Source of the DNA: an uncultured Acidobacteriota bacterium
GTDB lineage: Bacteria; Acidobacteriota; Vicinamibacteria; Vicinamibacterales; UBA8438
Assembly (NCBI GenBank): GCA_937888665.1
Contig: CALBET010000175.1
Coordinates: 1-27,930 of the forward strand
DNA length: 27,930 nt
Direction: 5' to 3'
A program made the translations under genes and the position numbers. The notes beneath the pieces were generated by a model that saw only the letters and a list, made by a program, of their open reading frames with translations, ran no database searches and was not told where the DNA came from. Shown here piece by piece: positions 1,651 through 24,321 of the stretch (positions are counted from its first letter, which is position 1; every line of letters starts with the position of its first letter).

Positions 1651-2868
1651 TCACCCGGCGTGGAGTCCGAGATAGAGCTCCTGCGTGCGCCGCACCATCC
1701 GCTCGGCTGAGAATCGTTCGCGGGCGACCACACTCGCCTGCGCGCCCATCCGATTCGCCAGCGTCCGGTCGGCCAGCAACTCCAGGATGGCGCCGGCCAG
1801 CGCCTCCGGATCACGCGGAGCCACCACGCGCGCGGTCATCCCGTCATCGACCACCTCGGGGATGCCGCCGACCGCGGTGGTCACCACGGGACGGCCGAGC
1901 GCCATCGCCTCGACCAGCGTGATCGGCAGCCCCTCCGAGATGGAGGGCAACACGACCAGATCGCTGGCTCGCATCAGTTCGAGCGCGTCCGGGATCTCGC
2001 CGGGAAACGTCACACGCGCGCTCACGCCGAGACGGTCGGCCAGCGCCTGCATGCTGGCTCGGCTGTCTCCCTCGCCAGCCAGCACGAACCTGGTGTCGGG
2101 ATGGGCCGCCAGCACCGCCGGCACGGCGCGAATCAGAAACTCATGCCCCTTGATCGGAAAAAAGTTGGCGACAACCGAGATGCGAGGACTGCCCTCTCCC
2201 CACCGACCGGACGAGCCGGCGCCGTCCGCGTATCGGGCCAGGCGCTCCTCGTCGTCCACGTCCACGCCGTTCTCGATGACGCACAGACGCTCGGCCAGAA
2301 CCCGAATACCGGGACGGGTCAGCAGATCGTCCGCCACGTAGTTCGACGGCGCGATGACGCGGTCGCAGCCGCGATAGATGGCCCGAAACAGGTGTGAGAC
2401 GCCCTGGCGTCTGACGCGTTTCACCCCGGAGACGCCGATCGGCAAGAAGTAGGCACCCGCGACGCTGCTCACCACGCGACGGATACCGGCGAGCCGAGCC
2501 GCCAACCCGCCAAGCACATCAGCGGTCCAGAGATGCGTGTGCACCAGATCACACCGCGACTCACGCATCAGCGCGGCCAGCTTGGTGATGGTGCGAGGCC
2601 GCCCCAGATCGACGAGGTCGAGGCTCCAGACCCGAGACGCATGGCGGCCGTAGGTCTCGGCCATCGAGCCACGCCCGTGACAGGCAACCACTACCTCGAA
2701 GCGTTCCGGGTCAAGCCCTTGCAAGAGCGTCGCGAAGACCTGTTCGGCGCCGCCGGCCCCGGAGGCCGCGATGACACTGAAGAGTCGGATGCGCTCCACG
2801 GGGTCGAACGTTTCAGCGGGCTCCAGTCGGCTCAACGGGCCGACGCGTCCACGGGCCGGACAGCCCAC
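1651..2868 (-). CDS. GT4 family glycosyltransferase
   Basis: GAGGAEQ, DLVHTH, IENGVD, KGHEFL, SISEGLPITLVEAMALGRPVV (EX7E motif). The GTG start at 2868, next to the upstream stop, is uncertain. Confidence 0.88.
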   Translation of the reverse strand: MGCPARGRVGPLSRLEPAETFDPVERIRLFSVIAASGAGGAEQVFATLLQGLDPERFEVVVACHGRGSMAETYGRHASRVWSLDLVDLGRPRTITKLAALMRESRCDLVHTHLWTADVLGGLAARLAGIRRVVSSVAGAYFLPIGVSGVKRVRRQGVSHLFRAIYRGCDRVIAPSNYVADDLLTRPGIRVLAERLCVIENGVDVDDEERLARYADGAGSSGRWGEGSPRISVVANFFPIKGHEFLIRAVPAVLAAHPDTRFVLAGEGDSRASMQALADRLGVSARVTFPGEIPDALELMRASDLVVLPSISEGLPITLVEAMALGRPVVTTAVGGIPEVVDDGMTARVVAPRDPEALAGAILELLADRTLANRMGAQASVVARERFSAERMVRRTQELYLGLHAG

Positions 2869-2869
2869 G

Positions 2870-4816
2870 TTACGGGGTCAGTGCCCCGGTCACGGACGCG
2901 ATCAGTCCCGCGATATCGAGCTGGTGGTACGCCAGCACCTCTTCGTTCGTGCCGCAAACCGGCAGTTCGCGGACACCGATCGCGGTCACCGGAACCGAGA
3001 GCCCGAGCTGGGCAATTCGGCTGGCGAGCATCTGGCCTTGCCCGCCATCGACGTAGTGGTTGTCGAGCGTGAAGACCCGCTGCGCATCGGCGACCGCCTC
3101 CTGGAGCCAGGCAGCGTCGACACGATTCAGCCATGGCATGTCGATGACGCGCGCATGCACCCCGTGCTCAGCCTCGAGGCGCTCGGCCGCATGGTACGCG
3201 TTGCTCAGCAGCCACGGTCCGGCGCCGATGAGCACGACGACGTTGTCGGAGCCGCCGGGCCGCACCACCGTGCCGACACCGAGTTCGAGCGCGTAGTCGG
3301 CCGGCAGGGTGAACGGTACCGGCCAGCCGAGCGACACCAGCCGGATGTAGCTGCTTTGGGTCGTCTGCTCAAGACAGAACGACAGCGTGGCCGCCGATTC
3401 GGCTTCGGTGCAGGGCTCGATGAGAATCAGATTCGGGATCGCAGCCAACGCCGAAATATCGCGGACCGCCTGGTGCGAATGCCCAGGGCCACCGGGCAGC
3501 AGCCCTGCCAGCGAGCCGACATAGATGACCTTCGTCCCCTCGCTGGCGTTGTTGTAGATCTGCTCGTTCGGCCGCGCCGAGAGGAAGCAGGCGAACGAAT
3601 GGGCTATCGGCACCAGCCCCTGACGCGCCATCGCCCCCGCCTGCGACACCATGTCTTGCTCGGCGATTCCGCATTCGATGAAGCGGTCGGGGAACTGGTC
3701 CCGAAACTCAAGCAAGCCACAGTCCTTGACCAGGTCGGCGTCGAGCGCGACGATAGCGGGGTTGCGCCGAGCGTGCTCGACAAGCGCGGTGCCATACGCG
3801 TTGACGAGACGCTCGACCTCCAGCACCGGTTTGCGGGGTGGTCGGCGGGCGGTCTCGAGCACCAGGTCGCCCAGACCCGCCTCGCGCAGGCGGTCGCGAG
3901 CGGCGGCGATCAACTCGGCCGCCCCTTTGGCGTACGCCTCCTCGTTGGGCGCGCCGCTATGGAAAAGATACAGCGAGTCCGCCGCGAGCGCCGCGGGCCC
4001 CTCCATGAACGAGACGCCCTTGCCCTTGACCGTGTCGGCGATGAGCACTTTCGGCACGCCGGGACTCGCGTTGAGCTGTGCGAGGGCAGCGTCGAGCGCC
4101 GCGAAGTCGTGACCGTCGCAGCGTGCGACCCGCCAGCCAAAGCTGGCGAACTTCGCCTCGAGATCGCCAAGAGGACCCACGTCTTCCACCCACGTGTCGG
4201 ACTGAATCTTGTTGTGGTCGACGATGACGGTGATCTCGTCGAGCCCCAATGCGACCGCCGATCCGAGCGACTCCCAGATCTGCCCTTCCTGCAACTCGCC
4301 GTCACCAGTCAGCACGAAGATCTGACGACGCTGACCGCGGAGCCGATTGGCTATCGCCATCCCCTTCGCTTTCGAGATCCCCATGCCGAGCGATCCGGTG
4401 TTCGCCTGGATGAAGGGCGTCTCGACGTGAGGATGCCCGGCCAGACCGTCCACCCGGCGCAGAGCGTGCAACAACTCGAAGTCGAGCAGCCCGAGCCCGG
4501 TCAGCACGGCGTAGAGCGCCGGGGCGTCGTGTCCCTTCGACGAGAAGAAGAGGTCGCACCGATCGTCGCCCTGGTCCACCCCCTGCATCTTCTGCAAGAA
4601 GAGCCAGGTCATGATATCGGTCGCGCTGAAGCAGGTGCCCGGATGCCCCGACCAGGCCCTGGCGATCGTGTAGAGGACGTTGATACGCGTGTAGGCCGCG
4701 AACACCGCGGCACGCGGCTGCGGGTCCAGGTGACGCTCGAGGAGCGACTCGAATGCCCTCCGCGGTACGTAGAACAGCTCGTCGGATTCGACCTGTTCGA
4801 GCTGCGATTCACCCAT
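2870..4816 (-). CDS. Single-chain ThDP-dependent transketolase-like enzyme (N- and C-terminal domains fused) with an atypical acceptor site
   Basis: SGHPG, SKGH, GHP, GSLGMG, ThDP motif GDGELQEG...DHN, TVKGKG, GIAEQ, SHQ; GGAGG Shine-Dalgarno upstream of the ATG. Confidence 0.9.
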   Translation of the reverse strand: MGESQLEQVESDELFYVPRRAFESLLERHLDPQPRAAVFAAYTRINVLYTIARAWSGHPGTCFSATDIMTWLFLQKMQGVDQGDDRCDLFFSSKGHDAPALYAVLTGLGLLDFELLHALRRVDGLAGHPHVETPFIQANTGSLGMGISKAKGMAIANRLRGQRRQIFVLTGDGELQEGQIWESLGSAVALGLDEITVIVDHNKIQSDTWVEDVGPLGDLEAKFASFGWRVARCDGHDFAALDAALAQLNASPGVPKVLIADTVKGKGVSFMEGPAALAADSLYLFHSGAPNEEAYAKGAAELIAAARDRLREAGLGDLVLETARRPPRKPVLEVERLVNAYGTALVEHARRNPAIVALDADLVKDCGLLEFRDQFPDRFIECGIAEQDMVSQAGAMARQGLVPIAHSFACFLSARPNEQIYNNASEGTKVIYVGSLAGLLPGGPGHSHQAVRDISALAAIPNLILIEPCTEAESAATLSFCLEQTTQSSYIRLVSLGWPVPFTLPADYALELGVGTVVRPGGSDNVVVLIGAGPWLLSNAYHAAERLEAEHGVHARVIDMPWLNRVDAAWLQEAVADAQRVFTLDNHYVDGGQGQMLASRIAQLGLSVPVTAIGVRELPVCGTNEEVLAYHQLDIAGLIASVTGALTP

Positions 4817-4822
4817 CTCGAT

Positions 4823-5578
4823 TCATCCTCCAAAGGCCGCCCGGTTCACAGGCGGCAGCGTCCAGTCCCCGCTGGCGACCAGCTCTTCGGCGAGCCGCCA
4901 ATCCCATGTGTCGTTGATGTCGAACCCCTCACGTTCGTCCGTCCTGAACGGCACGAGCGTGTGACCGGCGATGGTGCGCCCCTCGAGTGCCACCCGACTC
5001 CAGGCGATCTCCAGGCTCGCGTTCTGCACCCAGACCTCGGGCAGCGACGGCATCTGGCTGCTGTGCCACGGCTGCTCAGCCGGACCGAACGGGAGCAACG
5101 GCAGCAACCGGTCGCCCCGGATGACCCACATCTTCCCGGGGTGCTGACGCACCCGCTCCACGGCCCGGAGCGAATCGACGCCGTCCGCGCCCCGAAACAC
5201 GGACCAGGCCCGACGGATGGTGTCGGCGGTCCGGAACGGGCTGGTCGGTCTGAGAATAGCGAAGCAGTCAAAGGTTCTATCGGCGTCCCGCAGCGCGCCA
5301 AGCCCGTGCTCGACCCACTCGATGTCAGGTGACCGCGCCCCGGCTATCGTCGCCGGTCTACGGAACGGCACCTCGGCGCCGTAGTGTCGCGCGACCTCGG
5401 CGGTCGCTTCGTCATTTGTCGACACCACGACCGCCCCGAACACCCCGGAATCGCGCGCGCCCGCGATCGTGTACGCGATGAGCGGATGACCACCCAGCAC
5501 GCGGATGTTCTTGCCGGGCACTCGAATCGACCCACTGCGGGCCGGAATGAACGCGACACAGGACGGCTCGGTGGTCAT
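4823..5578 (-). CDS. neuA: Acylneuraminate/nonulosonate cytidylyltransferase (NeuA/CMAS family)
   Basis: IPARSGSIRVPGKNI, VVVSTND, LRPTSPFR, QNASL, FDIND. Start moved to the ATG at 5578 (MTTEPSC) because the longer ORF-track start lies inside a MITE. Confidence 0.88.
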   Translation of the reverse strand: MTTEPSCVAFIPARSGSIRVPGKNIRVLGGHPLIAYTIAGARDSGVFGAVVVSTNDEATAEVARHYGAEVPFRRPATIAGARSPDIEWVEHGLGALRDADRTFDCFAILRPTSPFRTADTIRRAWSVFRGADGVDSLRAVERVRQHPGKMWVIRGDRLLPLLPFGPAEQPWHSSQMPSLPEVWVQNASLEIAWSRVALEGRTIAGHTLVPFRTDEREGFDINDTWDWRLAEELVASGDWTLPPVNRAAFGG

Positions 5579-5598
5579 CGACGGCACGGCGCAGTAGT

Positions 5599-5756
5599 GC
5601 GTATCACAATGACGGTGACCTATTCGGTCGCCGAGGCGCCGAATCACCGGGCGCGAGGAGGGAGCCTACGGGAAGTCGACGCGTCGTCACAACGCCCAAC
5701 GCCGCGACGGGCGGGACGGCTCGGTGATCGAAAGCGGCGCCGTCATTGTGACACGC
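5599..5756. mobile_element. MITE-like element C (about 158 bp)
   Basis: Terminal inverted repeats GCGTATCACAATGACGG (5599-5615) and CCGTCATTGTGACACGC (5740-5756) match 16/17, with TA 2 nt outside each end; inner imperfect IR; contains the shared core start GGGCGCGAGGAGGGAGC (5649-5665). Confidence 0.7.
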
Positions 5757-5761
5757 GGTAC

Positions 5762-7237
5762 TCAGACGGCCCCCGGGTCGGCATGGATGTAAATCGTCTT
5801 CCAGTCGGAGTAGACGTCGAGCGCTTCGGTGCCAGCCTCGCGCCACCCGGTGCCCGACTGCCGTAGCCCCCCGAACGGCATGTGCGGCTCGCTGCCGTAG
5901 GTGCCCCCGTTGATGGACGCCACGCCCGACTTGATGCGGCTGAGGAAGGTCATCGCACGGTCGACGTTCGCGGTGTGGATGGCGGCGGTGAGCCCGAACG
6001 GTGAGGCGTTGGCCAGACTGATCGCCTCGTCGAAGTCGGCCACGCGGTACAGACAGGCGATCGGCCCGAACAACTCCGCCTGGGAAATCTCAGCCTCCGC
6101 GGCGGCGCCCTCGAGCAGCGTGGGTGTCATGTAGAACCCGTCGCGGTGCGCATCGTCCGTCATCCGTCCGCCACCGACCAACACCGTCGCGCCGGCGGCC
6201 CGTGCCCGGTCGACCGCCGAGACCATGTTGTCGAGCTGCCGCTGATTGATGACCGGACCTAGGTCGTCATCGTCGGCCGGGCCAAGCGTGAGGCTCCGCG
6301 TGTACTCCAACAACTGTTCCTTGAATCGGTCGTAGACCTGGTCGAACACGATCAGTCGGCTGCCGGATGCACATCGTTGCCCCGCGTTGCTGAACGCGGA
6401 CAGACCGGCAATCGTGACGGCTCGATCGAGATTTGCGTCGTCGCAGACGATAAGTGGGTTCTTGCCACCGAGCTCCAGGCAGACCTTGGCCAGACGCGCG
6501 CCGGCGGTCGCCTGAATCTGCCGACCCACGCCGCACGACCCGGTGAAGCTGATCAGGTCGACACCCGGGTGCTCCACCAGCGGCGCTCCCGCCTCGGGCC
6601 CGTATCCCTGGACGACATTGAACACCCCGGGCGGAATGCCGACGTCGTCGAACACCTTCGCCGCGGCCCACGCGGTGGCGGGTGTATCCTCCGACGCCTT
6701 CATCACCGCGGTGTTCCCGCAGAGCAGCGCCGGGTACGCCTTCCAGGCCACGTTCGCGATCGGCGTGTTGGCGGCGATGATCAGACCGGCGACCCCCAGC
6801 GGCTGCCTGACGATCAGGGCCGTCCGGTGCGGCACCGCGCTGGTCGTCGTCTTGCCATAAAACCGACGCCCCTCCCCGGCGACGAACAGCCCCATCTCGA
6901 CTGCTGCGCCCGTCTCGCCGCGAGCGTCCTGTCGGGACTTGCCCGTTTCGAGCGAGACGATCTCCGCAAACTGGTCGCTCCGCTCGCGCATCAGCAACGC
7001 CGCCTCGCGGAGCAGATCGCCGCGAGCGACCGGGGTCATCCCGGCCCAGTCCGGCTGCGCGCGTTGCGCTGCCGCAACCGCTGACTCCACATCGGCCGCG
7101 CCGGAGCGAGCGACGGTGCACAACTCGGCTCCGGTCGCCGGATTCAGATTCGGTAGCGTCTGCCCATCCTTCGCGGCATGCTCTCTACCGTCGATCCAGT
7201 TCGGTATCTGCGGCGGTATCAACGACGTTGGGTGCAT
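5762..7237 (-). CDS. NAD(P)-dependent aldehyde dehydrogenase
   Basis: FTGS, LELGGKNP (catalytic Glu), NAGQRCASG (catalytic Cys), ELFGP, PFGGLRQSG; AAAGGA SD upstream. Confidence 0.93.
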   Translation of the reverse strand: MHPTSLIPPQIPNWIDGREHAAKDGQTLPNLNPATGAELCTVARSGAADVESAVAAAQRAQPDWAGMTPVARGDLLREAALLMRERSDQFAEIVSLETGKSRQDARGETGAAVEMGLFVAGEGRRFYGKTTTSAVPHRTALIVRQPLGVAGLIIAANTPIANVAWKAYPALLCGNTAVMKASEDTPATAWAAAKVFDDVGIPPGVFNVVQGYGPEAGAPLVEHPGVDLISFTGSCGVGRQIQATAGARLAKVCLELGGKNPLIVCDDANLDRAVTIAGLSAFSNAGQRCASGSRLIVFDQVYDRFKEQLLEYTRSLTLGPADDDDLGPVINQRQLDNMVSAVDRARAAGATVLVGGGRMTDDAHRDGFYMTPTLLEGAAAEAEISQAELFGPIACLYRVADFDEAISLANASPFGLTAAIHTANVDRAMTFLSRIKSGVASINGGTYGSEPHMPFGGLRQSGTGWREAGTEALDVYSDWKTIYIHADPGAV

Positions 7238-7306
7238 CTCGATGAGATCCTTTTCGTGCTATGGGCTCTTGGTGTGGGCCAGCAGCCCACTAAGAAACCG
7301 CGTGCC

Positions 7307-7425
7307 GGGTTTCCTGGCGAGGCGTTCGTCTGGCCAGGCGCGACGAGGGAGCATGCAGGTGGCATGTGACCCCGCTGAGCCGAAGCCGCGACGTCCGCCC
7401 TTGCGGACGCCTCGCCAGGAAACCC
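7307..7425. mobile_element. MITE-like element A (119 bp)
   Basis: Perfect 19-bp terminal inverted repeats GGGTTTCCTGGCGAGGCGT (7307-7325) and ACGCCTCGCCAGGAAACCC (7407-7425); directly abuts the SDR stop codon; contains the shared core at 7336-7371. Confidence 0.8.
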
Positions 7426-8262
7426 CTACCAGGCGGTGAAGCCGCCGTCGACCCGCAACTCCGTACCGGTGACGTACGTCGACGCGTCGGACGCGAGAAA
7501 GCGGAGCGGGCCCGTCAGGTCGCTGGCCTCCGCCATGCGACCCAGCGGCACTCGATCGTTGAACTTGCGCTGGAACTCCGGGTCCTGGCCACCCAGCACG
7601 CCTCCGGGGGACAATGTGTTGACCCGGACACCATACGGTCCCCACGCCGTCGCCAGATACCGGGTCAAGTTCACCACCGCTGCCTTCGAGGCGCCGTAGG
7701 CCGGTGGCTTCAAGAACGGCGGGTCCAGGTTCATATGAGCGTAGAGGCGGAGGTCCGGCGACACGCTGGCGTAGAGCGACCCGATGTTGATGATCGAGCC
7801 ACGTCGCGCTTTGACCATCTCGGCCCCGAATACCTGGGACACCTGGAACATCCCCAGGGTGTTGACCTCGAGAATCGCACGACTGGCGTCCAGTGGGACA
7901 TCTTCCATCCGATGGTATGTCGCGCCATCCGTGGAGGCCGGCTGGTCGATGCCGGCATTGTTCACCAGCACCGAAGCCACACCCATGAGTTCGGCGCTGG
8001 CCGCCTGGGCCGCCACAAGCGAGGCCCGATCCATCACATCGGCGCGATGCAGGCGGAGTCGCGGTGCGCCGGTCGAATGGATCGACTGCGCATACCGATC
8101 GAGCAACGACTGCAGGCCCGGGCTCACCGGCGCCCGCTCCAGGTCGAGCGCGAATACCCGCGCGCCGGCATCCAGGAGCGCACCCACCCAGATCGGTCCT
8201 AGCCGGCCGGACGCGCCGGTCACCACGGCGACCGTATCATCGAGACGAAACTGGTCTTTCAT
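7426..8262 (-). CDS. Classical short-chain dehydrogenase/reductase
   Basis: VVTGASGRLG, VNNAG, catalytic YGASK, VRVNTLSPGG, LRVDGG. Start moved to the ATG at 8262 (MKDQFRLDD); the longer ORF-track N-terminus is read from a repeat. Confidence 0.92.
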   Translation of the reverse strand: MKDQFRLDDTVAVVTGASGRLGPIWVGALLDAGARVFALDLERAPVSPGLQSLLDRYAQSIHSTGAPRLRLHRADVMDRASLVAAQAASAELMGVASVLVNNAGIDQPASTDGATYHRMEDVPLDASRAILEVNTLGMFQVSQVFGAEMVKARRGSIINIGSLYASVSPDLRLYAHMNLDPPFLKPPAYGASKAAVVNLTRYLATAWGPYGVRVNTLSPGGVLGGQDPEFQRKFNDRVPLGRMAEASDLTGPLRFLASDASTYVTGTELRVDGGFTAW

Positions 8263-8264
8263 TA

Positions 8265-8475
8265 GACGGGGCTGCGCCCCGAACCCCCGCGGGCCCTTCG
8301 CGGGGACCCCGCAACGCCCCACGCCGGACCCGCGAGGCGCGCACGTGCGCGCCTTGCCCTGACGGGGCTACGCGTCCATTCTTTGACGGGGTTACGCCCC
8401 GAACCCCACGCGACGGCTACGCGGGGACCCCGAGTGCCCCACTCCGCCGCCGCGGGGCGCGCATTGTCGCGCGCC
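8265..8475. repeat. Two REP-like multi-hairpin direct repeats of about 90 bp with a 120-bp period
   Basis: Copy 1 (8265-8353) begins GACGGGGCTGCGCCCCGAACCCC; copy 2 (8385-8475) begins GACGGGGTTACGCCCCGAACCCC. Both contain CGCGGGGACCCCG and end in a GGCGCGC/GCGCGCC hairpin. A partial third start GACGGGGCTACGC lies at 8361. Confidence 0.8.
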
Positions 8476-8497
8476 GTGGCCGGACACGATGCACTAT

Positions 8498-8655
8498 CAG
8501 TCCTTGGTGAAATTCCCGCGTTGCACGGAGACCGACGCTGGTTCGGTCGAGCAAGGCGAGAAGAGGGAAAATACCGGCAATATTTGACCGGTGAACAACG
8601 CGGATCGGCCGGATTCAGCGACGGTCGAATGCAGCGGGACTTTTGCCACGGGCTG
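8498..8655. mobile_element. MITE-like element B (158 bp)
   Basis: Imperfect TIRs CAGTCCTTGGTGAAATTCCCGC and GCGGGACTTTTGCCACGGGCTG (17/22), TA one base outside each end, nested inner IR (8531-8550 vs 8605-8625), and the shared core at 8554-8589. Confidence 0.72.
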
Positions 8656-8660
8656 CTAGC

Positions 8661-9722
8661 CTACTGGCCGGCCAACTCGAGTTGGTCAAGCGAGAGGGGG
8701 TCGTCCACGGACAGCGCCACCTTTGTCACCGCCCCGATCACGCGTTGGATCTCGACCGGGGCAAGCCCGTCGCCCGGCGACTTGACCGCTATGTCATCCA
8801 CGGTCAGCGTCTGACCGGCCGGCACGTCGCGGGCCGCGACCAGCTTCTTGCCCATCTTCAGCACCGGCCCGGCCTCACTCGGAAAGACGACCTTCGTCCC
8901 GTCGCCCATGCTCCGTCGGGCTCGCTCGAGGTCGCGGGTCATCTTGCGCATGCCGACCGGTTCAAGCGAGAAGACGTTGTCGGTTCCCTTCATCGCCCGG
9001 TTCAGCGTGAAGTGCTTCTCGATGACCCGCGCGCCCAGCACATAGGACACGACCGGCATCGCAATGCCGTTGTCGTGCCCCGAGTAGCCAATCACGATGT
9101 CTGGGAATCGCTGACGATAGGTGTCGATGACCCGCAGGTTGAGCTCGTCGAACTCCACCGGATAGCCGCAGGTGCACTGCATGATGCAGAGTTGCGTGTT
9201 GATGGCCATCACCGTCTCGTAGGCGCGTTCGACGTCTTCCATGGTCCCGCCGCCGGTGCTCACGATGATCGGTTTCCCGAACGCGGCCACGTGCGCCAAC
9301 AGCGGTAGGTTCCGCAGGTCGCCCGAGGCGATCTTGTAGGCGGGCATGTCCAGCGCCTCGAGAAAGTCGGCACTGAGTACGTCGAACGCGGTGGCAAAGA
9401 AATCCAACCCCAGTTCGGCGGCATACGCCTTCAGTTCGACATACTCCTCGTTGCCGAATTCGAGCGCCTCGCGATGTTCGCCGTAGGTCGCGCCGAAACT
9501 GTTCTCGTTCTCGTACGGCTTGTCGAAGGCGGTCTGGGTAAAGAGGGTCCGATTGTCCCGCTTCTGCAGCTTCACCGCGCTCACCCCGCAGGACTGCGCC
9601 TGGCGGAACATCTCTTTCGCCGTCTCGAGGTTGCCTTGGTGGTTATGCCCGACCTCCGCAATGACGTAGGCAGGGTTGTCGTCGCTGACGACGTGCCCTC
9701 CCAGCTTCAATTCGCGTGACAT
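8661..9722 (-). CDS. neuB: NeuB-family nonulosonate synthase with C-terminal SAF/antifreeze-like domain; 9-phosphate (NANS/Kdn9P-synthase-like) type
   Basis: IAEVGHNHQG, VKLQK, TYGEH, YKIASGD, IVSTGG, IGYSGH, IEKHFTL, SLEP. GGAGGAGG SD supports the ATG at 9722 (MSRELK). Confidence 0.93.
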   Translation of the reverse strand: MSRELKLGGHVVSDDNPAYVIAEVGHNHQGNLETAKEMFRQAQSCGVSAVKLQKRDNRTLFTQTAFDKPYENENSFGATYGEHREALEFGNEEYVELKAYAAELGLDFFATAFDVLSADFLEALDMPAYKIASGDLRNLPLLAHVAAFGKPIIVSTGGGTMEDVERAYETVMAINTQLCIMQCTCGYPVEFDELNLRVIDTYRQRFPDIVIGYSGHDNGIAMPVVSYVLGARVIEKHFTLNRAMKGTDNVFSLEPVGMRKMTRDLERARRSMGDGTKVVFPSEAGPVLKMGKKLVAARDVPAGQTLTVDDIAVKSPGDGLAPVEIQRVIGAVTKVALSVDDPLSLDQLELAGQ

Positions 9723-9765
9723 CGTCCGGTCCTCCTCCACGAGGTAAATGAAGAACTGTGGGCGG

Positions 9766-10716
9766 CTAGCCGCGTATGCGGGACACCAGCGCGTCCCAGC
9801 CCAGTGCGCCGGATGCGGTCGCCCGCGCGCTGTCGGCGATCGACTGCAGTGTGTCCGGCTCCGTCGGTAGTGCCTCGCACCGGTGGATGTCGATCACGTT
9901 GTGCATGTGGTCGAAGACCCCGGGCGAGTGCTCGTCGAAATTGGTGAGCACCACCGACCCGCAGTCCATGGCGGCATTGACGGTGGTGTTGTTGGCCCGC
10001 ACCCCTTTGTCGAAGAAGGCGGCGAAGAACGTCGTGTCGATCAAATAGTTGTACACCGCCGTGTCAGACATGTACCCCAGAAAATAAATATGCTCGCCGT
10101 AGATCTCCCGCAACTCGTCGAAGACCACCGTGAACCGCTCATCAAACGCGGTGCCCTCATGCAACGCCGTGGAGAGATAGACGGAATACGGCCGGCCCGT
10201 CTGCTCCAGCAGCGCGTGCACCGTCCGGTGCAGCTCCGACCGCACCTTGTGCGCCATCCCGAACGCGAACACGGAGAGCCCCTCCAACCGGAAGCGCTGC
10301 GGCTCGAGCAAGGTCGATGGGCACCAGGAGTCCTGTACGTCTGGACGCTGCACCCGCAGCTCGGCGACGAGCTCGGCGTTGCCGCAATACACTGTCGCGG
10401 CCCGAGACAGCAGCGACCGCTCCACATCCGTGTCGGTCCACGCGTGCAGAAACAGACTGAACCCGCCACGCCACGACGCCGTGCCGAGCAATGACACCAG
10501 TGCGGCGCTGTCAGTGTCGGAAAACTCGGACTGCTTGAGCGATAGCACGGGATGCGCCATCAACGCGGCCCGGTCGTCGAACACGCTGAGCATCGGCACC
10601 TCCAGATGACGCGCAAGCAGCAGGTTGAACTTTGCCACTCCGCAGGTCAGGGGATTGAGGTGATATCCGAGCACGCCGTCGGCGCGCCCGGTTCCGACGG
10701 CGGGCTGCTCGCTCAC
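9766..10716 (-). CDS. Short, atypical GT-B-like protein (putative glycosyltransferase)
   Basis: CGVAKFN, AFGMAHK, YFLGYMSD and GVRANNTTVNAAMDCG resemble a GT4-like C-terminal domain. The GTG start at 10716 overlaps the upstream TGA (GTGA). Confidence 0.55.
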   Translation of the reverse strand: MSEQPAVGTGRADGVLGYHLNPLTCGVAKFNLLLARHLEVPMLSVFDDRAALMAHPVLSLKQSEFSDTDSAALVSLLGTASWRGGFSLFLHAWTDTDVERSLLSRAATVYCGNAELVAELRVQRPDVQDSWCPSTLLEPQRFRLEGLSVFAFGMAHKVRSELHRTVHALLEQTGRPYSVYLSTALHEGTAFDERFTVVFDELREIYGEHIYFLGYMSDTAVYNYLIDTTFFAAFFDKGVRANNTTVNAAMDCGSVVLTNFDEHSPGVFDHMHNVIDIHRCEALPTEPDTLQSIADSARATASGALGWDALVSRIRG

Positions 10717-20474: not shown

Positions 20475-21973
20475 GACGGGGCTCCGGCGGGCGGCGTCGC
20501 CGCGAGCGTGTCGAGCACCCACTGCCCGAGCCGTGCGCCGGCCTGGCCATCGGTAAACGCGCAGCACCGCCGCGCGAGCGCACGACGTCCCACACCATCC
20601 CTCGCCGGGTCGGCCAGATAGCGCGCCACAGCACGCACGAGATCGATGGCGCTCACGGCTACATGCGCCGCACCGGTCTCCACCACCGGCTGATAGTGTT
20701 CAAACTGGTAATACCGGGTGATGGAGAGTGGCAGCGGCAAGTCGGGCGTCTCGTCGAAACCGATATTTACAACCGGCGTGTCAAAGAGCGCCGCCTCTAC
20801 GGTCGTCGTGGAGGCAAAGTTCACGATCACGTCGCTGTGGGCTAGCGTCGCGGCCAGCCGACGTCGATCCTCGGTCCCTGGGGTGAACGAATCGAGCTCC
20901 GGCGACCCGTGGCTCCACTCAAGTTGCTGGAACGGCTTCTCGACGAAGACGTGTCGACCGTCGTGGAACCTCGAGTACAGGTCCACGTGGTCGCGCGGAT
21001 GCACGCGCACCAGGAGCTGGGCCTCGTTGCCAAATGCCCCCTCGTCGATCGCTCGCACGAGAATCTCGACCACCCGATCGGTGGTCGGATACACCAGCGC
21101 GGGGGCGGTGGCCAGTGTGACCAGTGGGCGAGCAGGGTCGGCGCCGACCGATGCACACAGCTCGGCTCTGGTCGGAATGGGCTCGCCACCGAAATAGGCG
21201 TCGAAGGGCAGCGCTCCGGTCACCCGGACGTGGTCAGCCCGGAAGCCGTGGTAGCGAACCGCTTCATCACGCATCGTCTCGTTCCAGACGGCCAGTTGGT
21301 CGACCGGCAGGACAGTGTGATATTTCGACGACAGATTGTCCCACCCGAGGTCGACACCCATCTGCGGCACGCCGAAGCGCTTGGCCGCATAAATCAGCGG
21401 TACCTCGATCGGGAGAAAGCCGGCGGTTGCGGTCACGAGCAGATCAGGCCGATGGGTCTGGAACAGCGTCCGATAGCCGGACACGTCGGTGATCCGCTGT
21501 GCCACCCGAAACCAGCCGCGTCGGGACACCGGCAGCCGACACACCGCCGCCTTGAGCGCGATGAGGGCGCCACGCCCCCGCCATTTCTCCATCAACCGCG
21601 CGCGGTCACGCTGGATCCGGACCGCCCGCAAGCGGGACTCAAGGAGAAACCGTTCGCTCAGAATCGAATCGACCACCCGTGCGCCGAGGCTGGGTGGCGG
21701 CGCGAACATCGGGACACAACGCACATCCTGTCGCTCAAGCTCCGACACCAGCTGGGGATCCGAAGCGAACGGAGACAACACCACGATCCGAGGTCGCGGT
21801 TGCGCGTCGAGCAACGCTCGCAGAAACGACCCGCGCGTGAGGTCCGCCACGTGGTGGCCGGCCGGCACGGAGAGGAACATCGTCCGCCACGGCGCCGCGT
21901 CCAAACTGACCGGCGGCGACGGGTGACCTAGGGCGGGAGCGGCGCGGACGACCAAGGTGGGCGCCGCGCTCAC
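20471..21973 (-). CDS. GT-B-like protein ('WDNL/HP' type), paralog 3 (more divergent)
   Basis: GWDNLSSK, VWNETM, TGALPFDAYF, LLVRVHP, NFASTTTVEAALFDTPVVN. The GTG at 21973 overlaps the upstream TGA. Confidence 0.65.
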   Translation of the reverse strand: MSAAPTLVVRAAPALGHPSPPVSLDAAPWRTMFLSVPAGHHVADLTRGSFLRALLDAQPRPRIVVLSPFASDPQLVSELERQDVRCVPMFAPPPSLGARVVDSILSERFLLESRLRAVRIQRDRARLMEKWRGRGALIALKAAVCRLPVSRRGWFRVAQRITDVSGYRTLFQTHRPDLLVTATAGFLPIEVPLIYAAKRFGVPQMGVDLGWDNLSSKYHTVLPVDQLAVWNETMRDEAVRYHGFRADHVRVTGALPFDAYFGGEPIPTRAELCASVGADPARPLVTLATAPALVYPTTDRVVEILVRAIDEGAFGNEAQLLVRVHPRDHVDLYSRFHDGRHVFVEKPFQQLEWSHGSPELDSFTPGTEDRRRLAATLAHSDVIVNFASTTTVEAALFDTPVVNIGFDETPDLPLPLSITRYYQFEHYQPVVETGAAHVAVSAIDLVRAVARYLADPARDGVGRRALARRCCAFTDGQAGARLGQWVLDTLAATPPAGAPS

Positions 21974-22473
21974 GCTGGCGAGCCCTCGTGCGCCTCCACC
22001 AGCAAGTCGCACACCTCACGCACCGCGCCCAGCCCGCCTGACCGCTCAGTTACGTAGCGCGCCACGACCAGGGCGGCCGGATACGCGTCAGCCACGCAGA
22101 TGGAGACCCCCACATTGCGCAGACAGTCCACGTCGTTGATGTCGTTGCCGACGTAGGCGACCTGGTCAGTTGCGAGGTCGCGGTCCGCGAGAATCTGGCG
22201 GAGCGCAGCCCACTTGGTGTCGCCCAGCCCCTGGACACACTCGATGCCCAGCTTCGCGGCCCTGGCCGAAACCACCGGATTCGTCTCCGTGGACAGCACG
22301 AGCGAGCCGAGGCCTAGACGACGCAACGCCTGGAGGCCCAGTCCGTCAGCACGCGAGCAGAACACCGCCTCTTTGCCGTCTTGATCGACCAGCACGCGGT
22401 TATCGGTGAAGACCCCGTCGAAGTCGAACACCACGAACGTGACGGGCCTGAGATGTTCAGCGGTGAGTCGCAT
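21970..22473 (-). CDS. KdsC/YrbI-family HAD phosphatase, probably nonulosonate-9-phosphate (Kdn9P-type) phosphatase
   Basis: FDFDGVFTD, ADGLG, STETNPVVSARAAKLGI (Glu and Lys 11 residues apart), YVGNDINDV, GGLGAVREVCD. Confidence 0.88.
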   Translation of the reverse strand: MRLTAEHLRPVTFVVFDFDGVFTDNRVLVDQDGKEAVFCSRADGLGLQALRRLGLGSLVLSTETNPVVSARAAKLGIECVQGLGDTKWAALRQILADRDLATDQVAYVGNDINDVDCLRNVGVSICVADAYPAALVVARYVTERSGGLGAVREVCDLLVEAHEGSPA

Positions 22474-23207: not shown

Positions 23208-24200
23208 TCAGCGTGCCGCCGACCGGTCCTCGGCGTGCAGGTCGTATTCTGACTGGGGGACGAGCGCATCAAGCGGGTCGCCATGAAGAAACGCGACCAC
23301 GTTCTGAGCCGCGCCCTGCTCCATACGCTGGCGACAGTCCGCCGCCATCGACCCTATGTGCGGGGTGATCAGGCAGGTCTCGATGCCGACGAGCTCCCCG
23401 TCATACGGCTCGTGAGTGAACGTGTCGACGCCGGCACCCCCGAGGCGTCCATCCCGCAAGGCCGCCGCCAGTGCCCCCTCATCGACGACACCGCCACGGC
23501 AGGTATTGATCAGCAACGCGCCGGGTCGCATCGTGGCCAGCTCTGCGGCACCGACCAAACGCCGAGTGCGACGAGTTAGCGGCACATGTAACGTGACGAG
23601 ATCCGACTCACGGAGCAGAGTGGCGAGATCGACCCATTCGACGTGGCCGTGCGGAGCATCCAGCGACACCGGCCTCACGTCGTTGGCCAGAACCCGGCAC
23701 CCGAAGACCGACAGCAGCGTGATCACGCGACGACCGATCCGCCCCACTCCCACCACTCCAACCGTGACGCGAGCCAGACGCCGGCCCTGCAGTCGCTGCC
23801 ACACGCCTGCCCGGACCGCCTGGTTGGCCAGATGCACGCCGCGCAGGAGCGAAAGCGCCATCCCAATCGTCAGTTCGGCCACGGCGTCGGCCGGCGCTTC
23901 CGGTGTATAGGCGACCGGAATTCCTCGCCGGCGGGCGGCGGCAAGATCGACGCTGTCGAGACCGACACCCACCCGGGAAATCAGCCGCAACCGGTCCGCT
24001 GCCTCGATGGCCCTCTCGGTGATCGGTTCCGTCCCGGCAATCAGCAGGTCGTAGCCTGGAATGAGGGAGACCAGTTCCTCAGCCGTCAGCTTCCGGCCGA
24101 GCGGGTTGAGATCGAATGGCACGCCGGCCGCGCGGAGAAGATCCAGCGACGACCGGTCCACTTCGCCGAACGGCACGGCCGTGATCAACGCTCGTGACAT
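23208..24200 (-). CDS. D-isomer-specific 2-hydroxyacid dehydrogenase (SerA-catalytic-domain-like, no ACT domain)
   Basis: SRVGVGLDSVD, AVAELT, VGVGRIG, HVPLT, INTCRGGVVDE, DTFTHEP, TPHIG. Start moved to the ATG at 24200 (MSRALIT). Confidence 0.9.
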   Translation of the reverse strand: MSRALITAVPFGEVDRSSLDLLRAAGVPFDLNPLGRKLTAEELVSLIPGYDLLIAGTEPITERAIEAADRLRLISRVGVGLDSVDLAAARRRGIPVAYTPEAPADAVAELTIGMALSLLRGVHLANQAVRAGVWQRLQGRRLARVTVGVVGVGRIGRRVITLLSVFGCRVLANDVRPVSLDAPHGHVEWVDLATLLRESDLVTLHVPLTRRTRRLVGAAELATMRPGALLINTCRGGVVDEGALAAALRDGRLGGAGVDTFTHEPYDGELVGIETCLITPHIGSMAADCRQRMEQGAAQNVVAFLHGDPLDALVPQSEYDLHAEDRSAAR

Positions 24201-24321
24201 GGGGGAACGGCCTGTTCCGACCGTGGTCGGAGCCTGCGGTAGGGGTGGTCCTGTCCCCAACGCAACAGAGAGCGACGCTTCGGACCCGAGCTTCCGATGG
24301 CCATACGTGTGACCGGGGTCC

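What the first reader, a model, noticed from the sequence alone, without database searches (positions are those of the whole stretch)
3330..3815. Transketolase-like enzyme has lost all four acceptor-phosphate residues and the stereoselectivity Asp
Seen: C-domain motifs read LVNAYG, DADLVKDC, SLAGLLPGGPGHSHQ and YIRLVS. Established: typical transketolase C-domains read TRDAYG, DADLSKST, THAG..VGEDGASHQ and YIRLGR; yeast R359/S386/H469/R528 bind the acceptor phosphate and D477 binds the acceptor 2-OH. By-eye alignment gives R>V, S>D, H>L, R>S and D>P. The donor/cofactor side (SGHPG, SKGH, GHP, GDGE..N, FHS, GIAEQ, SHQ) is intact. Inference: a specialised ketol transferase or lyase acting on a non-phosphorylated or nucleotide-activated substrate rather than a pentose-phosphate enzyme.
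Basis: partly seen in the sequence, partly recalled or inferred. Interest (0 to 1): 0.8.

Follow-up and report, generated by a model that had tools for sequence, protein, structure and literature searches.

The report
Phosphate-blind transketolase in sialic-like operon
This gene encodes a transketolase relative that keeps all its catalytic parts but has lost every residue that holds a sugar phosphate. It belongs to a gene set found in at least 13 bacterial phyla that probably makes an undescribed acidic surface sugar.

Summary
The gene lies at 2870-4816 on the minus strand and encodes 648 aa. Formal alignments to human TK and E. coli TktA give R358>V338, S385>D365, H461>L436, D469>P444 and R520>S495. 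The five catalytic His, the cofactor Glu and the Mg2+ motif are kept.

This is not decay. The same pattern, x-D-[LFYM]-[PA]-H-x, marks a monophyletic clade (SH-aLRT 99) that reaches down to about 34% identity. A canonical TK lies elsewhere in this genome.

In 35 of 41 clade loci, at least one of NeuB-type synthase, SDR, aldehyde dehydrogenase or CMP-sugar synthetase lies within 10 kb (20 carry all four). A KdsC-type phosphatase is also present in 14.

Best reading (about 0.45):
- The SDR oxidises the next-to-last carbon of a Kdn-like nonulosonate.
- This enzyme clips off the two-carbon ketol.
- The ALDH oxidises the new aldehyde to a heptulosaric acid, which is then CMP-activated.

The broader claim, a dedicated enzyme for a non-phosphorylated substrate of this pathway, is about 0.85.

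New here: AlphaFold2 places the domains as in DXS, not as in TK. A canonical TK control folded the TK way.

I found no paper on this. The scan has noted the cassette before on other genomes.

The parts
2870..4816 (-). Fused transketolase-family gene, 648 aa (P0002). ATG at 4816 follows a GGAGGA Shine-Dalgarno sequence, 6 bp after the neuA-like stop. The TAA stop at 2870-2872 is followed after 1 bp by the GTG start of the GT4 gene.
   Evidence: full-length matches to homologues at 100% coverage
3998..4699 (-). ThDP (PP) binding domain, residues 40-273. Holds H58, H96, H128 and the Mg2+ motif GDG...N (D172, N202).
   Evidence: Pfam PF00456, 108 bits
3962..3997 (-). Clade-specific insertion of about 8-10 residues just before catalytic H286. 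It carries the nearly invariant Y283 and is absent from canonical TKs.
   Evidence: alignment blocks; Y283 98% in the clade versus E/H in canonical TKs; invariant in A1
3338..3802 (-). Pyrimidine-binding (Pyr) domain, residues 339-493. Holds E386 and H448 and four of the five substitutions (D365, L436, P444, S495 just beyond its end).
   Evidence: Pfam PF02779, 90.8 bits
3803..3805 (-). V338 codon (GTC), in place of E. coli R358 / human R318 / yeast R359 (phosphate binding)
3722..3724 (-). D365 codon (GAC), in place of E. coli S385 / human S345. Invariant Asp in the clade.
3509..3511 (-). L436 codon (CTG), in place of E. coli H461 / human H416
3485..3487 (-). P444 codon (CCT), in place of E. 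coli D469 / human D424 / yeast D477 (binds the acceptor 2-OH and donor 4-OH)
3332..3334 (-). S495 codon (TCG), in place of E. coli R520 / human R474 / yeast R528
2912..3241 (-). Transketolase C-terminal domain, residues 526-635
   Evidence: Pfam PF02780, 60.4 bits
4823..5647 (-). CMP-ulosonate synthetase-like gene (CTP_transf_3; best NCBIfam match PseF, below cut-off), directly upstream of the TK gene
   Evidence: conserved neighbour
5762..7237 (-). Aldehyde dehydrogenase, 491 aa. Best NCBIfam matches are 2,5-dioxovalerate / alpha-ketoglutarate-semialdehyde dehydrogenases, both below cut-off.
   Evidence: conserved neighbour
7426..8322 (-). Classical SDR. The ORF is 298 aa, but homologues are 270 aa, so the start is probably the Met at 8262. 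Best matches are D-mannonate oxidoreductase, gluconate 5-dehydrogenase and galactitol dehydrogenase types.
   Evidence: conserved neighbour
8661..9740 (-). NeuB-family ulosonate synthase with SAF domain
   Evidence: conserved neighbour
21970..22473 (-). KdsC-family (HAD-IIIA) ulosonate-phosphate phosphatase. It lies 12 kb from neuB here, but between neuB and the SDR gene in many other loci.
1651..2868 (-). GT4 glycosyltransferase gene starting 1 bp after the TK stop codon

Best explanation
The gene encodes an active ThDP enzyme of the transketolase superfamily. It has been re-tooled to act on a non-phosphorylated intermediate of a nonulosonic-acid (Kdn-like) pathway, and most likely works as a side-chain 'trimming' ketolase.

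Proposed route:
1. The NeuB-type synthase and the KdsC-type phosphatase make a free 3-deoxy-nonulosonate from PEP and a hexose phosphate.
2. The SDR oxidises the next-to-last carbon (C8). The tail becomes a terminal ketol, HOCH2-CO-CHOH-, which is the group a transketolase donor carries.
3. The TK-like enzyme attacks the C8 carbonyl with ThDP and breaks the C7-C8 bond. It uses the retained His pair (H58/H286) on the C7 hydroxyl and H128/H448 on the C9 hydroxyl. The C2 unit is released as glycolaldehyde or passed to an unknown acceptor.
4. The aldehyde dehydrogenase oxidises the new C7 aldehyde to a carboxylate, giving a 3-deoxy-hept-2-ulosaric acid.
5. The NeuA-like enzyme activates that acid with CMP for the glycosyltransferases of the locus.

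What is shown:
- the residue pattern and its conservation;
- the clade;
- the cassette;
- the paralogous canonical TK.

What is inferred:
- that the enzyme is active;
- the substrate;
- the order of steps;
- the fate of the C2 unit;
- the product.
For: 1. The catalytic set is intact and invariant: H58, H96, H128, H286, E386, H448, GDG...N. The phosphate-binding positions and D469 are replaced by a conserved alternative set: D365 100%, L436 90%, P444 94%. This indicates purifying selection for a new specificity.

2. The clade is monophyletic (45 rows, SH-aLRT 99; core of 36 rows, 99) and separate from canonical TKs and from E. coli DXS.

3. Gene neighbourhood in 41 clade loci carrying 14 phylum labels:
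- NeuB within 10 kb in 28 loci, SDR in 29, ALDH in 29, NeuA in 28, KdsC-like in 14.
- All four of NeuB, SDR, ALDH and NeuA in 20 loci; at least one partner in 35.
- The outer subclades are in the same cassette (P0144 and P0131).

4. The partners fit the proposed chemistry.
- The SDR's best family and PDB matches are enzymes that, by established knowledge, oxidise the next-to-last carbon of sugar acids or polyols to a ketose-type end: D-mannonate oxidoreductase, gluconate 5-dehydrogenase, KduD, galactitol dehydrogenase.
- The ALDH's best matches act on the far-end aldehyde of a 2-keto acid: 2,5-dioxovalerate / KGSA dehydrogenase.
- All of these matches are below the curated cut-offs.

5. Of the schemes I considered, only this one gives the SDR, the TK and the ALDH consecutive, non-competing roles.

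6. Stereochemistry, by my own reasoning from the defined D-glycero-D-galacto configuration of Kdn. Read from C9, 8-keto-Kdn has the 3-OH on the left and the 4-O on the right. That is the D-threo arrangement of natural TK donors. In the pyranose form the '4-OH' is the ring oxygen, so the Asp that binds it (D469) would not be needed.

7. A canonical TK (R-S-H-D-Q-R) is present on contig C7 of the same genome.

8. The gene is accessory, as expected for a glycan locus. It was found in all 6 genomes of the same genus but in only 2 of 12 other genera of the family that were searched.

9. Laboratory variants of E. coli TK altered at the same positions exist: PDB 5hht is S385Y/D469T/R520Q (title). From my own knowledge these were made to accept non-phosphorylated substrates.
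Against: - There is no biochemical or glycan-composition evidence for any member.
- The SDR and ALDH matches are all below the curated cut-offs, and ALDH subfamilies score close together (betaine-aldehyde dehydrogenase 401 bits versus 433).
- No conserved new Arg or Lys was found to hold the C1 carboxylate. The one conserved replacement at a phosphate-binding position is an Asp (D365), which would suit a hydroxyl or an amine better than an anion.
- The fate of the ThDP-bound C2 unit has no assigned acceptor or enzyme.
- The gene order (synthase, SDR, ALDH, CMP synthetase, TK) does not follow the proposed reaction order.
- Six clade loci show no cassette partner within 10 kb: the Ignavibacteriota loci L031, L033 and L038, the short contig L039, and the Gaiellales loci L044 and L080.
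- The predicted DXS-like architecture leaves room for DXS-like decarboxylative chemistry.
Confidence: 0.45

Rival explanations
1. Chain extension or branching (carboligase). The enzyme decarboxylates pyruvate or hydroxypyruvate, or takes a ketol from a free ketose, and adds the C2 unit to an aldehyde on the ulosonate or its precursor. The product would be a longer or branched acidic sugar. The chemistry would resemble DXS or the two-carbon branch-adding ThDP enzymes of deoxysugar pathways.
For: - The AlphaFold2 model superposes as a whole chain on DXS, not on TK.
- A D-2-hydroxyacid dehydrogenase that could supply hydroxypyruvate lies in this window (23208-24260), in the locus of P0010, and in L020 and L021.
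- By established knowledge, transketolases accept hydroxypyruvate as an irreversible donor.
Against: - The 2-hydroxyacid dehydrogenase is not part of the conserved core. It appears in only 2 of the 41 tabulated loci, plus this window and the P0010 locus.
- An ALDH and a carboligase would compete for the same aldehyde, so this scheme gives no consecutive roles to the three conserved enzymes.
- The DXS acceptor residues R420, D427 and R478 are also replaced.
Confidence: 0.2
2. The enzyme acts upstream of NeuB. It cleaves or builds a non-phosphorylated ketose to supply the unusual aldose that the synthase condenses with PEP. The SDR and ALDH would tailor that precursor.
For: No dedicated precursor genes such as neuC, or the leg or pse sets, are in the core cassette, so a precursor-forming role is conceivable.
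Against: - A KdsC-type phosphatase is a frequent cassette member, placed directly after NeuB. This implies a phosphorylated aldose substrate, which this enzyme has lost the means to bind.
- An ALDH product (a carboxylate) is not an aldose for NeuB.
Confidence: 0.1
3. The same trimming or transfer chemistry takes place on the CMP-activated sugar rather than on the free ulosonate.
For: - The TK gene follows the CMP synthetase gene directly in most loci.
- The loss of the compact phosphate pocket and the clade-specific insertion next to H286 could open room for a larger ligand.
Against: - No recognisable nucleotide-binding element was found, and no conserved basic residues appeared.
- In several loci the synthetase gene comes after the TK gene or lies apart from it (L026, L035, L041, L092).
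Confidence: 0.12
4. Ordinary or decaying transketolase: either a second pentose-phosphate enzyme or an inactive remnant that happens to sit in a glycan locus.
For: It has the full three-domain TK architecture, and its best sequence matches in the PDB are human transketolase.
Against: - All four phosphate-binding residues and D469 are replaced.
- The replacements and all catalytic residues are conserved over a clade spanning 14 phylum labels.
- It scores below every NCBIfam transketolase cut-off.
- A canonical TK exists elsewhere in the genome.
Confidence: 0.03

Closest known systems
Mammalian-type (short, about 620 aa) transketolase, e.g. human TKT (PDB 4kxu, 3mos)
   Same: - Best sequence match: E 4.5e-65, about 27-30% identity over the full length.
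- Same three Pfam domains.
- Same ThDP/Mg2+ motif and cofactor Glu.
- Same His set for ketol chemistry.
   Different: - R318, S345, H416, D424 and R474 are all replaced.
- An 8-10 residue insertion carrying Y283 precedes the H261-equivalent.
- The predicted whole-chain arrangement does not superpose (rmsd about 19.7 A, TM 0.46).
- It lies in a glycan cassette, not in central metabolism.
[quoted passage not shown] PDB 8a4d, 2o1s, 2o1x
   Same: The predicted arrangement of the three domains within one chain matches: VIA Z 38-39, rmsd 2.4-2.7 A over 520-550 residues; Foldseek TM 0.72-0.79. By established knowledge, DXS forms its active site within one monomer.
   Different: - Only 22-28% identity.
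- TIGR00204 scores 165 bits against a cut-off of 466.
- The DXS acceptor residues R420, D427 and R478 align with L436, P444 and S495.
- The sequence motifs around the ThDP loop are TK-like.
Kdn / 9-phosphate route to nonulosonic acids (Kdn-9-P synthase, KdsC-type Kdn-9-P phosphatase, CMP-Kdn synthetase, as in Bacteroides thetaiotaomicron; recalled from the literature)
   Same: The cassette holds a NeuB-family synthase, a KdsC-family phosphatase and a CTP_transf_3 synthetase, and has no amino-sugar genes in its core.
   Different: The known route has no SDR, ALDH or ThDP enzyme. All three proteins here score below the NCBIfam equivalog cut-offs (NeuB 285 versus 400, PseF 117 versus 206, KDN-9-P phosphatase 82 versus 180).
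Engineered E. coli TktA variants altered at S385, D469 and R520 (PDB 5hht: S385Y/D469T/R520Q)
   Same: The natural clade has changed the same positions. From my own knowledge, these are the positions that laboratory evolution alters to move TK away from phosphorylated substrates.
   Different: The residues chosen differ (D, P, S), and R358 and H461 are changed as well. The natural clade is old, and its new residues are conserved.
Sulfoquinovose-pathway transketolase SqwGH, which acts on 6-deoxy-6-sulfofructose (recalled from the literature, not tested here)
   Same: It is a precedent for a TK-family enzyme recruited to a non-phosphate sugar in a dedicated pathway.
   Different: It is a split enzyme of a catabolic pathway that binds a sulfonate.

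Membership tests
Transketolase, EC 2.2.1.1 (canonical pentose-phosphate enzyme) | Three-domain architecture: Transketolase_N, Transket_pyr, Transketolase_C | tested here: met
   Pfam 108.4, 90.8 and 60.4 bits, all above the gathering scores
Transketolase, EC 2.2.1.1 (canonical pentose-phosphate enzyme) | ThDP/Mg2+ motif GDG...N, cofactor-activating Glu (E. coli E411), and catalytic His 26, 66, 100, 261 and 473 | tested here: met
   D172/N202, E386, H58, H96, H128, H286, H448; invariant in the clade
Transketolase, EC 2.2.1.1 (canonical pentose-phosphate enzyme) | Substrate-phosphate site: R358, S385, H461, R520 (E. coli numbering) | tested here: not met
   V338, D365, L436, S495
Transketolase, EC 2.2.1.1 (canonical pentose-phosphate enzyme) | Asp that sets stereoselectivity (E. 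coli D469 / yeast D477) | tested here: not met
   P444; Pro or Ala throughout the clade
Transketolase, EC 2.2.1.1 (canonical pentose-phosphate enzyme) | Score above a curated NCBIfam transketolase equivalog cut-off | tested here: not met
   NF004559 401 versus 488; NF004556 264 versus 575; TIGR00232 162 versus 682
Transketolase, EC 2.2.1.1 (canonical pentose-phosphate enzyme) | TK-type chain arrangement, with the active site formed between the PP domain of one subunit and the Pyr domain of the other | tested here: inconclusive
   The AlphaFold2 monomer model does not superpose on TK chains (rmsd about 19.7 A). A canonical TK control folded by the same pipeline does (1.8-2.0 A). This is a prediction only, and no dimer could be modelled (over the size limit).
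[quoted passage not shown] | Score above the TIGR00204 / NF003933 cut-offs | tested here: not met
   165 versus 466; 107 versus 395
[quoted passage not shown] | Glyceraldehyde-3-phosphate binding residues R420, D427 and R478 (E. coli DXS) | tested here: not met
   They align with L436, P444 and S495
[quoted passage not shown] | Packing of domains I and II within one monomer | tested here: met
   Met in the model only: Z 38-39, rmsd 2.4-2.7 A over 520-550 residues on DXS chains; TM 0.72-0.79
Unnamed TK clade of the NeuB-(KdsC)-SDR-ALDH-NeuA cassette | Residue signature x-D-[LFYM]-[PA]-H-x at E. coli positions 358, 385, 461, 469, 473 and 520, with all catalytic His kept | tested here: met
   V-D-L-P-H-S; falls inside the core group of 36 rows
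Unnamed TK clade of the NeuB-(KdsC)-SDR-ALDH-NeuA cassette | Placement inside the monophyletic clade | tested here: met
   SH-aLRT 99 for the 45-row clade and 99 for the 36-row core; quick IQ-TREE, LG+G4
Unnamed TK clade of the NeuB-(KdsC)-SDR-ALDH-NeuA cassette | Adjacent NeuB-type synthase, SDR, ALDH and CTP_transf_3 genes | tested here: met
   Window genes at 4823-9740; the same block
Unnamed TK clade of the NeuB-(KdsC)-SDR-ALDH-NeuA cassette | Ketol cleavage of an oxidised ulosonate (the proposed activity) | not testable with these tools
   Needs an enzyme assay

The most novel reading that the evidence does not exclude
A widespread, undescribed route trims the glycerol-like tail of a Kdn-type nonulosonate by SDR oxidation, ThDP-dependent removal of a two-carbon ketol, and ALDH oxidation, and yields a CMP-activated seven-carbon ulosaric (two-acid) sugar for bacterial surfaces. 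The ThDP enzyme would be a new kind of transketolase: TK catalytic residues, no phosphate site, and a DXS-type active site formed within one monomer.
Probability: 0.4. Interest if true: 0.85.

Novelty: new variant of a known kind. Interest (0 to 1): 0.72.

Why it matters
Transketolases are textbook enzymes of phosphorylated sugars. This clade would be a natural, ancient and widespread branch that keeps the ketol chemistry but works on a non-phosphorylated acidic sugar. It has changed the very positions that enzyme engineers mutate for that purpose.

The clade also marks a conserved cassette, seen in at least 13 phyla, that should make an unknown CMP-activated surface sugar. That would add a new building block and a new tailoring logic (carbon-chain trimming by ThDP) to the biology of nonulosonic acids.

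How heptulosaric acids are made is, to my knowledge, unsettled, so this cassette offers a testable route to that class of sugar. If the precursor is Kdn, the product would be an isomer of the plant sugar Dha, not Dha itself.

The predicted DXS-like domain arrangement, if real, would link the TK and DXS architectures within one lineage.

Tried and rejected
- Plus-strand ORF 2771-5332 (853 aa). It is Arg-rich and lies antisense to the real gene, so I rejected it as an artefact of the high G+C content.
- Literature. Seven full-text searches were run. The five aimed at a transketolase or ThDP enzyme in ulosonate or nonulosonate clusters found no description. The library does not cover subscription journals, so this is not proof of absence.
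- Dha (3-deoxy-D-lyxo-heptulosaric acid) as the product. By my own stereochemical reasoning, trimming Kdn would give the L-arabino isomer, not D-lyxo, so I make no claim of identity with Dha.
- Hydroxypyruvate as the dedicated donor. The D-2-hydroxyacid dehydrogenase is present here but is not part of the conserved core.
- The unknown protein at 9766-10692 as a core partner. It has no Pfam or NCBIfam match and was found in only 5 related loci. My first context scan used an out-of-frame query for it; this was corrected.
- Phage records. The only matches (33-36% identity, in two pieces each, on 'human fecal' phage contigs) are no closer than canonical TKs. I did not confirm clade members in phages.
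- Clade loci without a cassette. L031 has a histidine kinase, a transposase and a transporter nearby. L044 has an enolase-superfamily gene, a methyltransferase and a PMT_2 gene. Neither suggested an alternative function.
- Search for a new conserved basic residue that could hold a carboxylate. None was found among the clade-specific columns, apart from K149 on a helix after the ThDP loop.
- A dimer model is over the size limit of the complex tool, so none was run.
Full report
**1. What is at the coordinates**

The window has about 65% G+C, and most long frames are shadows of real genes. The plus-strand ORF across the finding (2771-5332) translates to an Arg-rich nonsense protein. The real gene is on the minus strand, 2870-4816, and encodes 648 aa (P0002).

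- It has a GGAGGA Shine-Dalgarno sequence and starts 6 bp after the stop of the upstream CMP-synthetase-like gene.
- Its TAA stop is followed after 1 bp by the GTG start of a GT4 glycosyltransferase gene.
- Pfam finds the three transketolase domains above threshold: N at residues 40-273, Pyr at 339-493, C at 526-635.
- Every NCBIfam transketolase or DXS equivalog scores below its cut-off. The best is NF004559, 401 bits against 488.
- The finding's span 3330-3815 corresponds to residues 334-496, which is the Pyr domain.

**2. Check of the observation**

HMMER aligns residues 43-647 to human transketolase (4kxu, E 4.5e-65). The numbering of that chain is native: L22, H37 and Q428 fall where expected. 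The alignment pairs:

- human R318 with V338
- S345 with D365
- H416 with L436
- D424 with P444
- R474 with S495
- Q428 (yeast H481) with H448

I took E. coli TktA from NC_000913.3. I verified that H26, H66, H100, H261, R358, S385, E411, H461, D469, H473 and R520 are where I recalled them. I then aligned it with the query and 92 relatives. The result is the same: R358>V, S385>D, H461>L, D469>P, R520>S. H58, H96, H128, H286, E386, H448 and the GDG...N motif are kept. The codons were read back from the DNA.

Two points need correcting:

- The motifs are in the middle Pyr domain, not in the C-terminal domain proper.
- By established structural knowledge of TK, the same Arg/Ser/His/Arg pocket holds the phosphate of the donor ketose as well as that of the acceptor. 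The classical donors are therefore as unlikely as the classical acceptors.

**3. The pattern is a family trait**

A word-indexed search found thousands of relatives. More than 100 clusters lie at 61-91% identity, and those that carry names are Acidobacteriota or Vicinamibacterales MAG proteins called 'transketolase C-terminal domain-containing protein'. An exhaustive HMMER search of 1.84 billion representatives gave 1207 proteins at E <= 1e-30.

In a 94-row alignment, every full-length relative down to about 34% identity carries [VIL..]-D-[L/F/Y/M]-[P/A]-H-[S/N..] at the six positions and keeps all catalytic His and the Glu. The classical R-S-H-D-H/Q-R pattern appears only in more distant rows.

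Columns conserved in at least 90% of 63 clade rows, and rare in 18 canonical rows, include D365, L436, P441, P444, Y283, G288, N46, N139, M145, K149, S206 and N422. The clade also has an insertion of 8-10 residues, carrying Y283, just before the H261-equivalent.

A maximum-likelihood tree rooted on E. coli DXS recovers the clade as 45 rows with SH-aLRT 99. Its core of 36 rows, which holds the query, also has 99. Its sister group is a small non-canonical set with Trp at the H26 position.

The window's own genome (a MAG, 83% complete) has a canonical mammalian-type TK on contig C7 (R-S-H-D-Q-R) and a split TK on C102. This gene is therefore an extra, specialised paralogue.

Among 30 related genomes it was found in all 6 of the same genus, in 2 of 12 other genera of the family, and in 2 of 12 other families of the order. 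This patchiness is typical of surface-glycan loci.

**4. Genomic context**

In the window the order on the minus strand is:

- NeuB-type synthase (8661-9740)
- SDR (7426-8322)
- ALDH (5762-7237)
- CTP_transf_3 synthetase (4823-5647)
- TK (2870-4816)
- GT4 (1651-2868)

Elsewhere in the locus are a KdsC-type phosphatase (21970-22473), a D-2-hydroxyacid dehydrogenase, a GDP-mannose 4,6-dehydratase and several transferases.

The same block was seen around homologues at 79%, 67% and 63% identity. A scan of one genome per species returned clade members from MAGs. I scored the window's proteins against all ORFs of 41 clade loci carrying 14 phylum labels. Within 10 kb:

| Partner | Loci (of 41) |
|---|---|
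| NeuB | 28 |
| SDR | 29 |
| ALDH | 29 |
| NeuA | 28 |
| KdsC-like | 14 |
| All four of NeuB, SDR, ALDH, NeuA | 20 |
| At least one partner | 35 |

- Several of the remaining loci are short contigs.
- Where the KdsC-like gene is present it usually sits between NeuB and the SDR.
- The partners are usually on the same strand as the TK gene.
- The outer subclades (K-D-L-P-H-H, P0144; V-D-Y-P-H-I, P0131) sit in the same cassette.
- Exceptions are three Ignavibacteriota and two Gaiellales loci. Their neighbours gave no alternative lead.

**5. What the partners suggest**

- The SDR's best NCBIfam matches are D-mannonate oxidoreductase, gluconate 5-dehydrogenase and KduD. Its PDB matches include galactitol dehydrogenase and gluconate 5-dehydrogenase. 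By established biochemistry, these enzymes oxidise the carbon next to a terminal CH2OH of a sugar acid or polyol, which creates a ketose-type end.
- The ALDH's best matches are 2,5-dioxovalerate / alpha-ketoglutarate-semialdehyde dehydrogenases. These oxidise the far-end aldehyde of a 2-keto acid. The PDB matches are generic.
- All these scores are below the curated cut-offs, so they are leads and not assignments.
- NeuB, the CMP synthetase and the phosphatase also fall below the equivalog cut-offs. The sugar is unlikely to be plain Neu5Ac, Pse or Kdo.

**6. Mechanism proposed**

A phosphorylated hexose and PEP give a nonulosonate 9-phosphate, which is then dephosphorylated. The SDR oxidises C8. 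The tail then reads HOCH2-CO-CHOH-, the defining group of a TK donor, but with no phosphate.

The TK-like enzyme keeps exactly the residues that act on that group. By established TK knowledge, H26/H261 act on the 3-OH, H100/H473 on the 1-OH, and E411 on the cofactor. It cleaves C7-C8.

The ALDH makes the step irreversible by oxidising the C7 aldehyde. The result is a heptulosaric acid, which the NeuA-like enzyme activates.

By my own reasoning from the D-glycero-D-galacto configuration, 8-keto-Kdn read from C9 has the D-threo pattern of natural TK donors. In the pyranose form the '4-OH' is the ring oxygen, which would make D469 redundant.

I wrote this idea down, before reading the scan's earlier notes. 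Other agents reached the same 'trimming' reading on other genomes. Those notes are not independent evidence.

I give the specific scheme about 0.45. I give the general statement, an active and dedicated ThDP enzyme for a non-phosphorylated intermediate of this pathway, about 0.85.

Weak points:

- There is no assay.
- No conserved basic residue for the carboxylate was found.
- D365 is unexplained.
- The C2 unit has no assigned acceptor.

**7. A new structural prediction**

AlphaFold2 with a 33-row clade alignment gave a confident model (pLDDT 92.9, pTM 0.92).

- As a whole chain it superposes on DXS structures: VIA Z 38-39, rmsd 2.4-2.7 A over 520-550 residues; Foldseek TM 0.72-0.79.
- On transketolases it reaches only rmsd about 19.7 A and TM 0.46, although the single domains match both families.

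As a control I folded a canonical short TK from the same search (P0205, 38% identical to the query, R-S-H-D-H-R) with 14 canonical rows. It superposes on human TK at 1.8-2.0 A over about 570 residues, and on DXS only at about 19 A.

The pipeline can therefore produce either arrangement, and it chooses the DXS one for this clade. It does so even though the clade is no closer in sequence to DXS (22-28% identity) than to TK (27-30%).

By established knowledge, DXS builds its active site within one monomer and TK builds it across the dimer.

This remains a prediction. A monomer model may satisfy the interdomain contacts within one chain when the linker allows it, and the control is closer to solved TKs than the query is.

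**8. Comparison with known systems and novelty**

By sequence and catalytic residues it works like a transketolase. It fails the defining substrate-site features of EC 2.2.1.1 and the curated cut-offs. It also fails those of DXS.

The natural replacements fall on the positions altered in engineered E. coli TK variants such as 5hht (S385Y/D469T/R520Q; titles).

The synthase-phosphatase-synthetase part resembles the Kdn 9-phosphate route. The SDR-TK-ALDH part has no described counterpart that I could find in seven full-text searches.

I rate it a new variant of a known kind of enzyme, embedded in an undescribed conserved pathway.

Noticed in passing
window 2870-4816 (model m302329c365ec): AlphaFold2 predicts a DXS-type arrangement of the PP and Pyr domains within one chain for this TK-like protein. 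A canonical TK control folded the TK way.
   Followed up: partly
G007:C8:68050-68916 and 68919-69947 (genome of the same family): The orthologue there is in two adjacent frames (residues 11-298 and 299-642, at 58% and 56% identity). It is either a natural split into N and C subunits or a frameshift.
   Followed up: no
window 9766-10692 (-): Protein of about 308 aa with no Pfam or NCBIfam match, directly upstream of neuB. Homologues lie in the related loci L001, L002, L043, L019 and L023 but not in most cassettes.
   Followed up: partly
proteins P0207, P0219, P0229, P0266; also P0231, P0242, P0267: Two further non-canonical TK groups. The sister group of the clade has Trp at the H26 position and Tyr at H461. 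Another group reads R-S-S-[L/M]-H-R. Their functions are unknown.
   Followed up: no
L025:6500-10000: In this deltaproteobacterial MAG the SDR, ALDH and NeuA genes of the cassette each appear as two or three separate frames. This points to frameshifts or assembly errors.
   Followed up: no
L020:282-5546 and L021:6459-13415: A variant arrangement: D-2-hydroxyacid dehydrogenase, a GMD-like epimerase/dehydratase, SDR, then TK (followed by ALDH in L021), with no NeuB within reach.
   Followed up: no
window 2771-5332 (+): An 853-aa open frame antisense to the TK and neuA genes. It is Arg-rich and is a high-G+C shadow frame, not a gene.
   Followed up: yes
window 7426-8322 (-): The SDR ORF is 298 aa, but homologues are 270 aa. 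The real start is probably the Met at about 8262.
   Followed up: partly
PDB 9kpq (hit list): A recently released 'ThDP-dependent enzyme belonging to the DXPS-like subfamily' superposes on the model at Z 34.2, rmsd 3.3 A. I did not look up its function.
   Followed up: no
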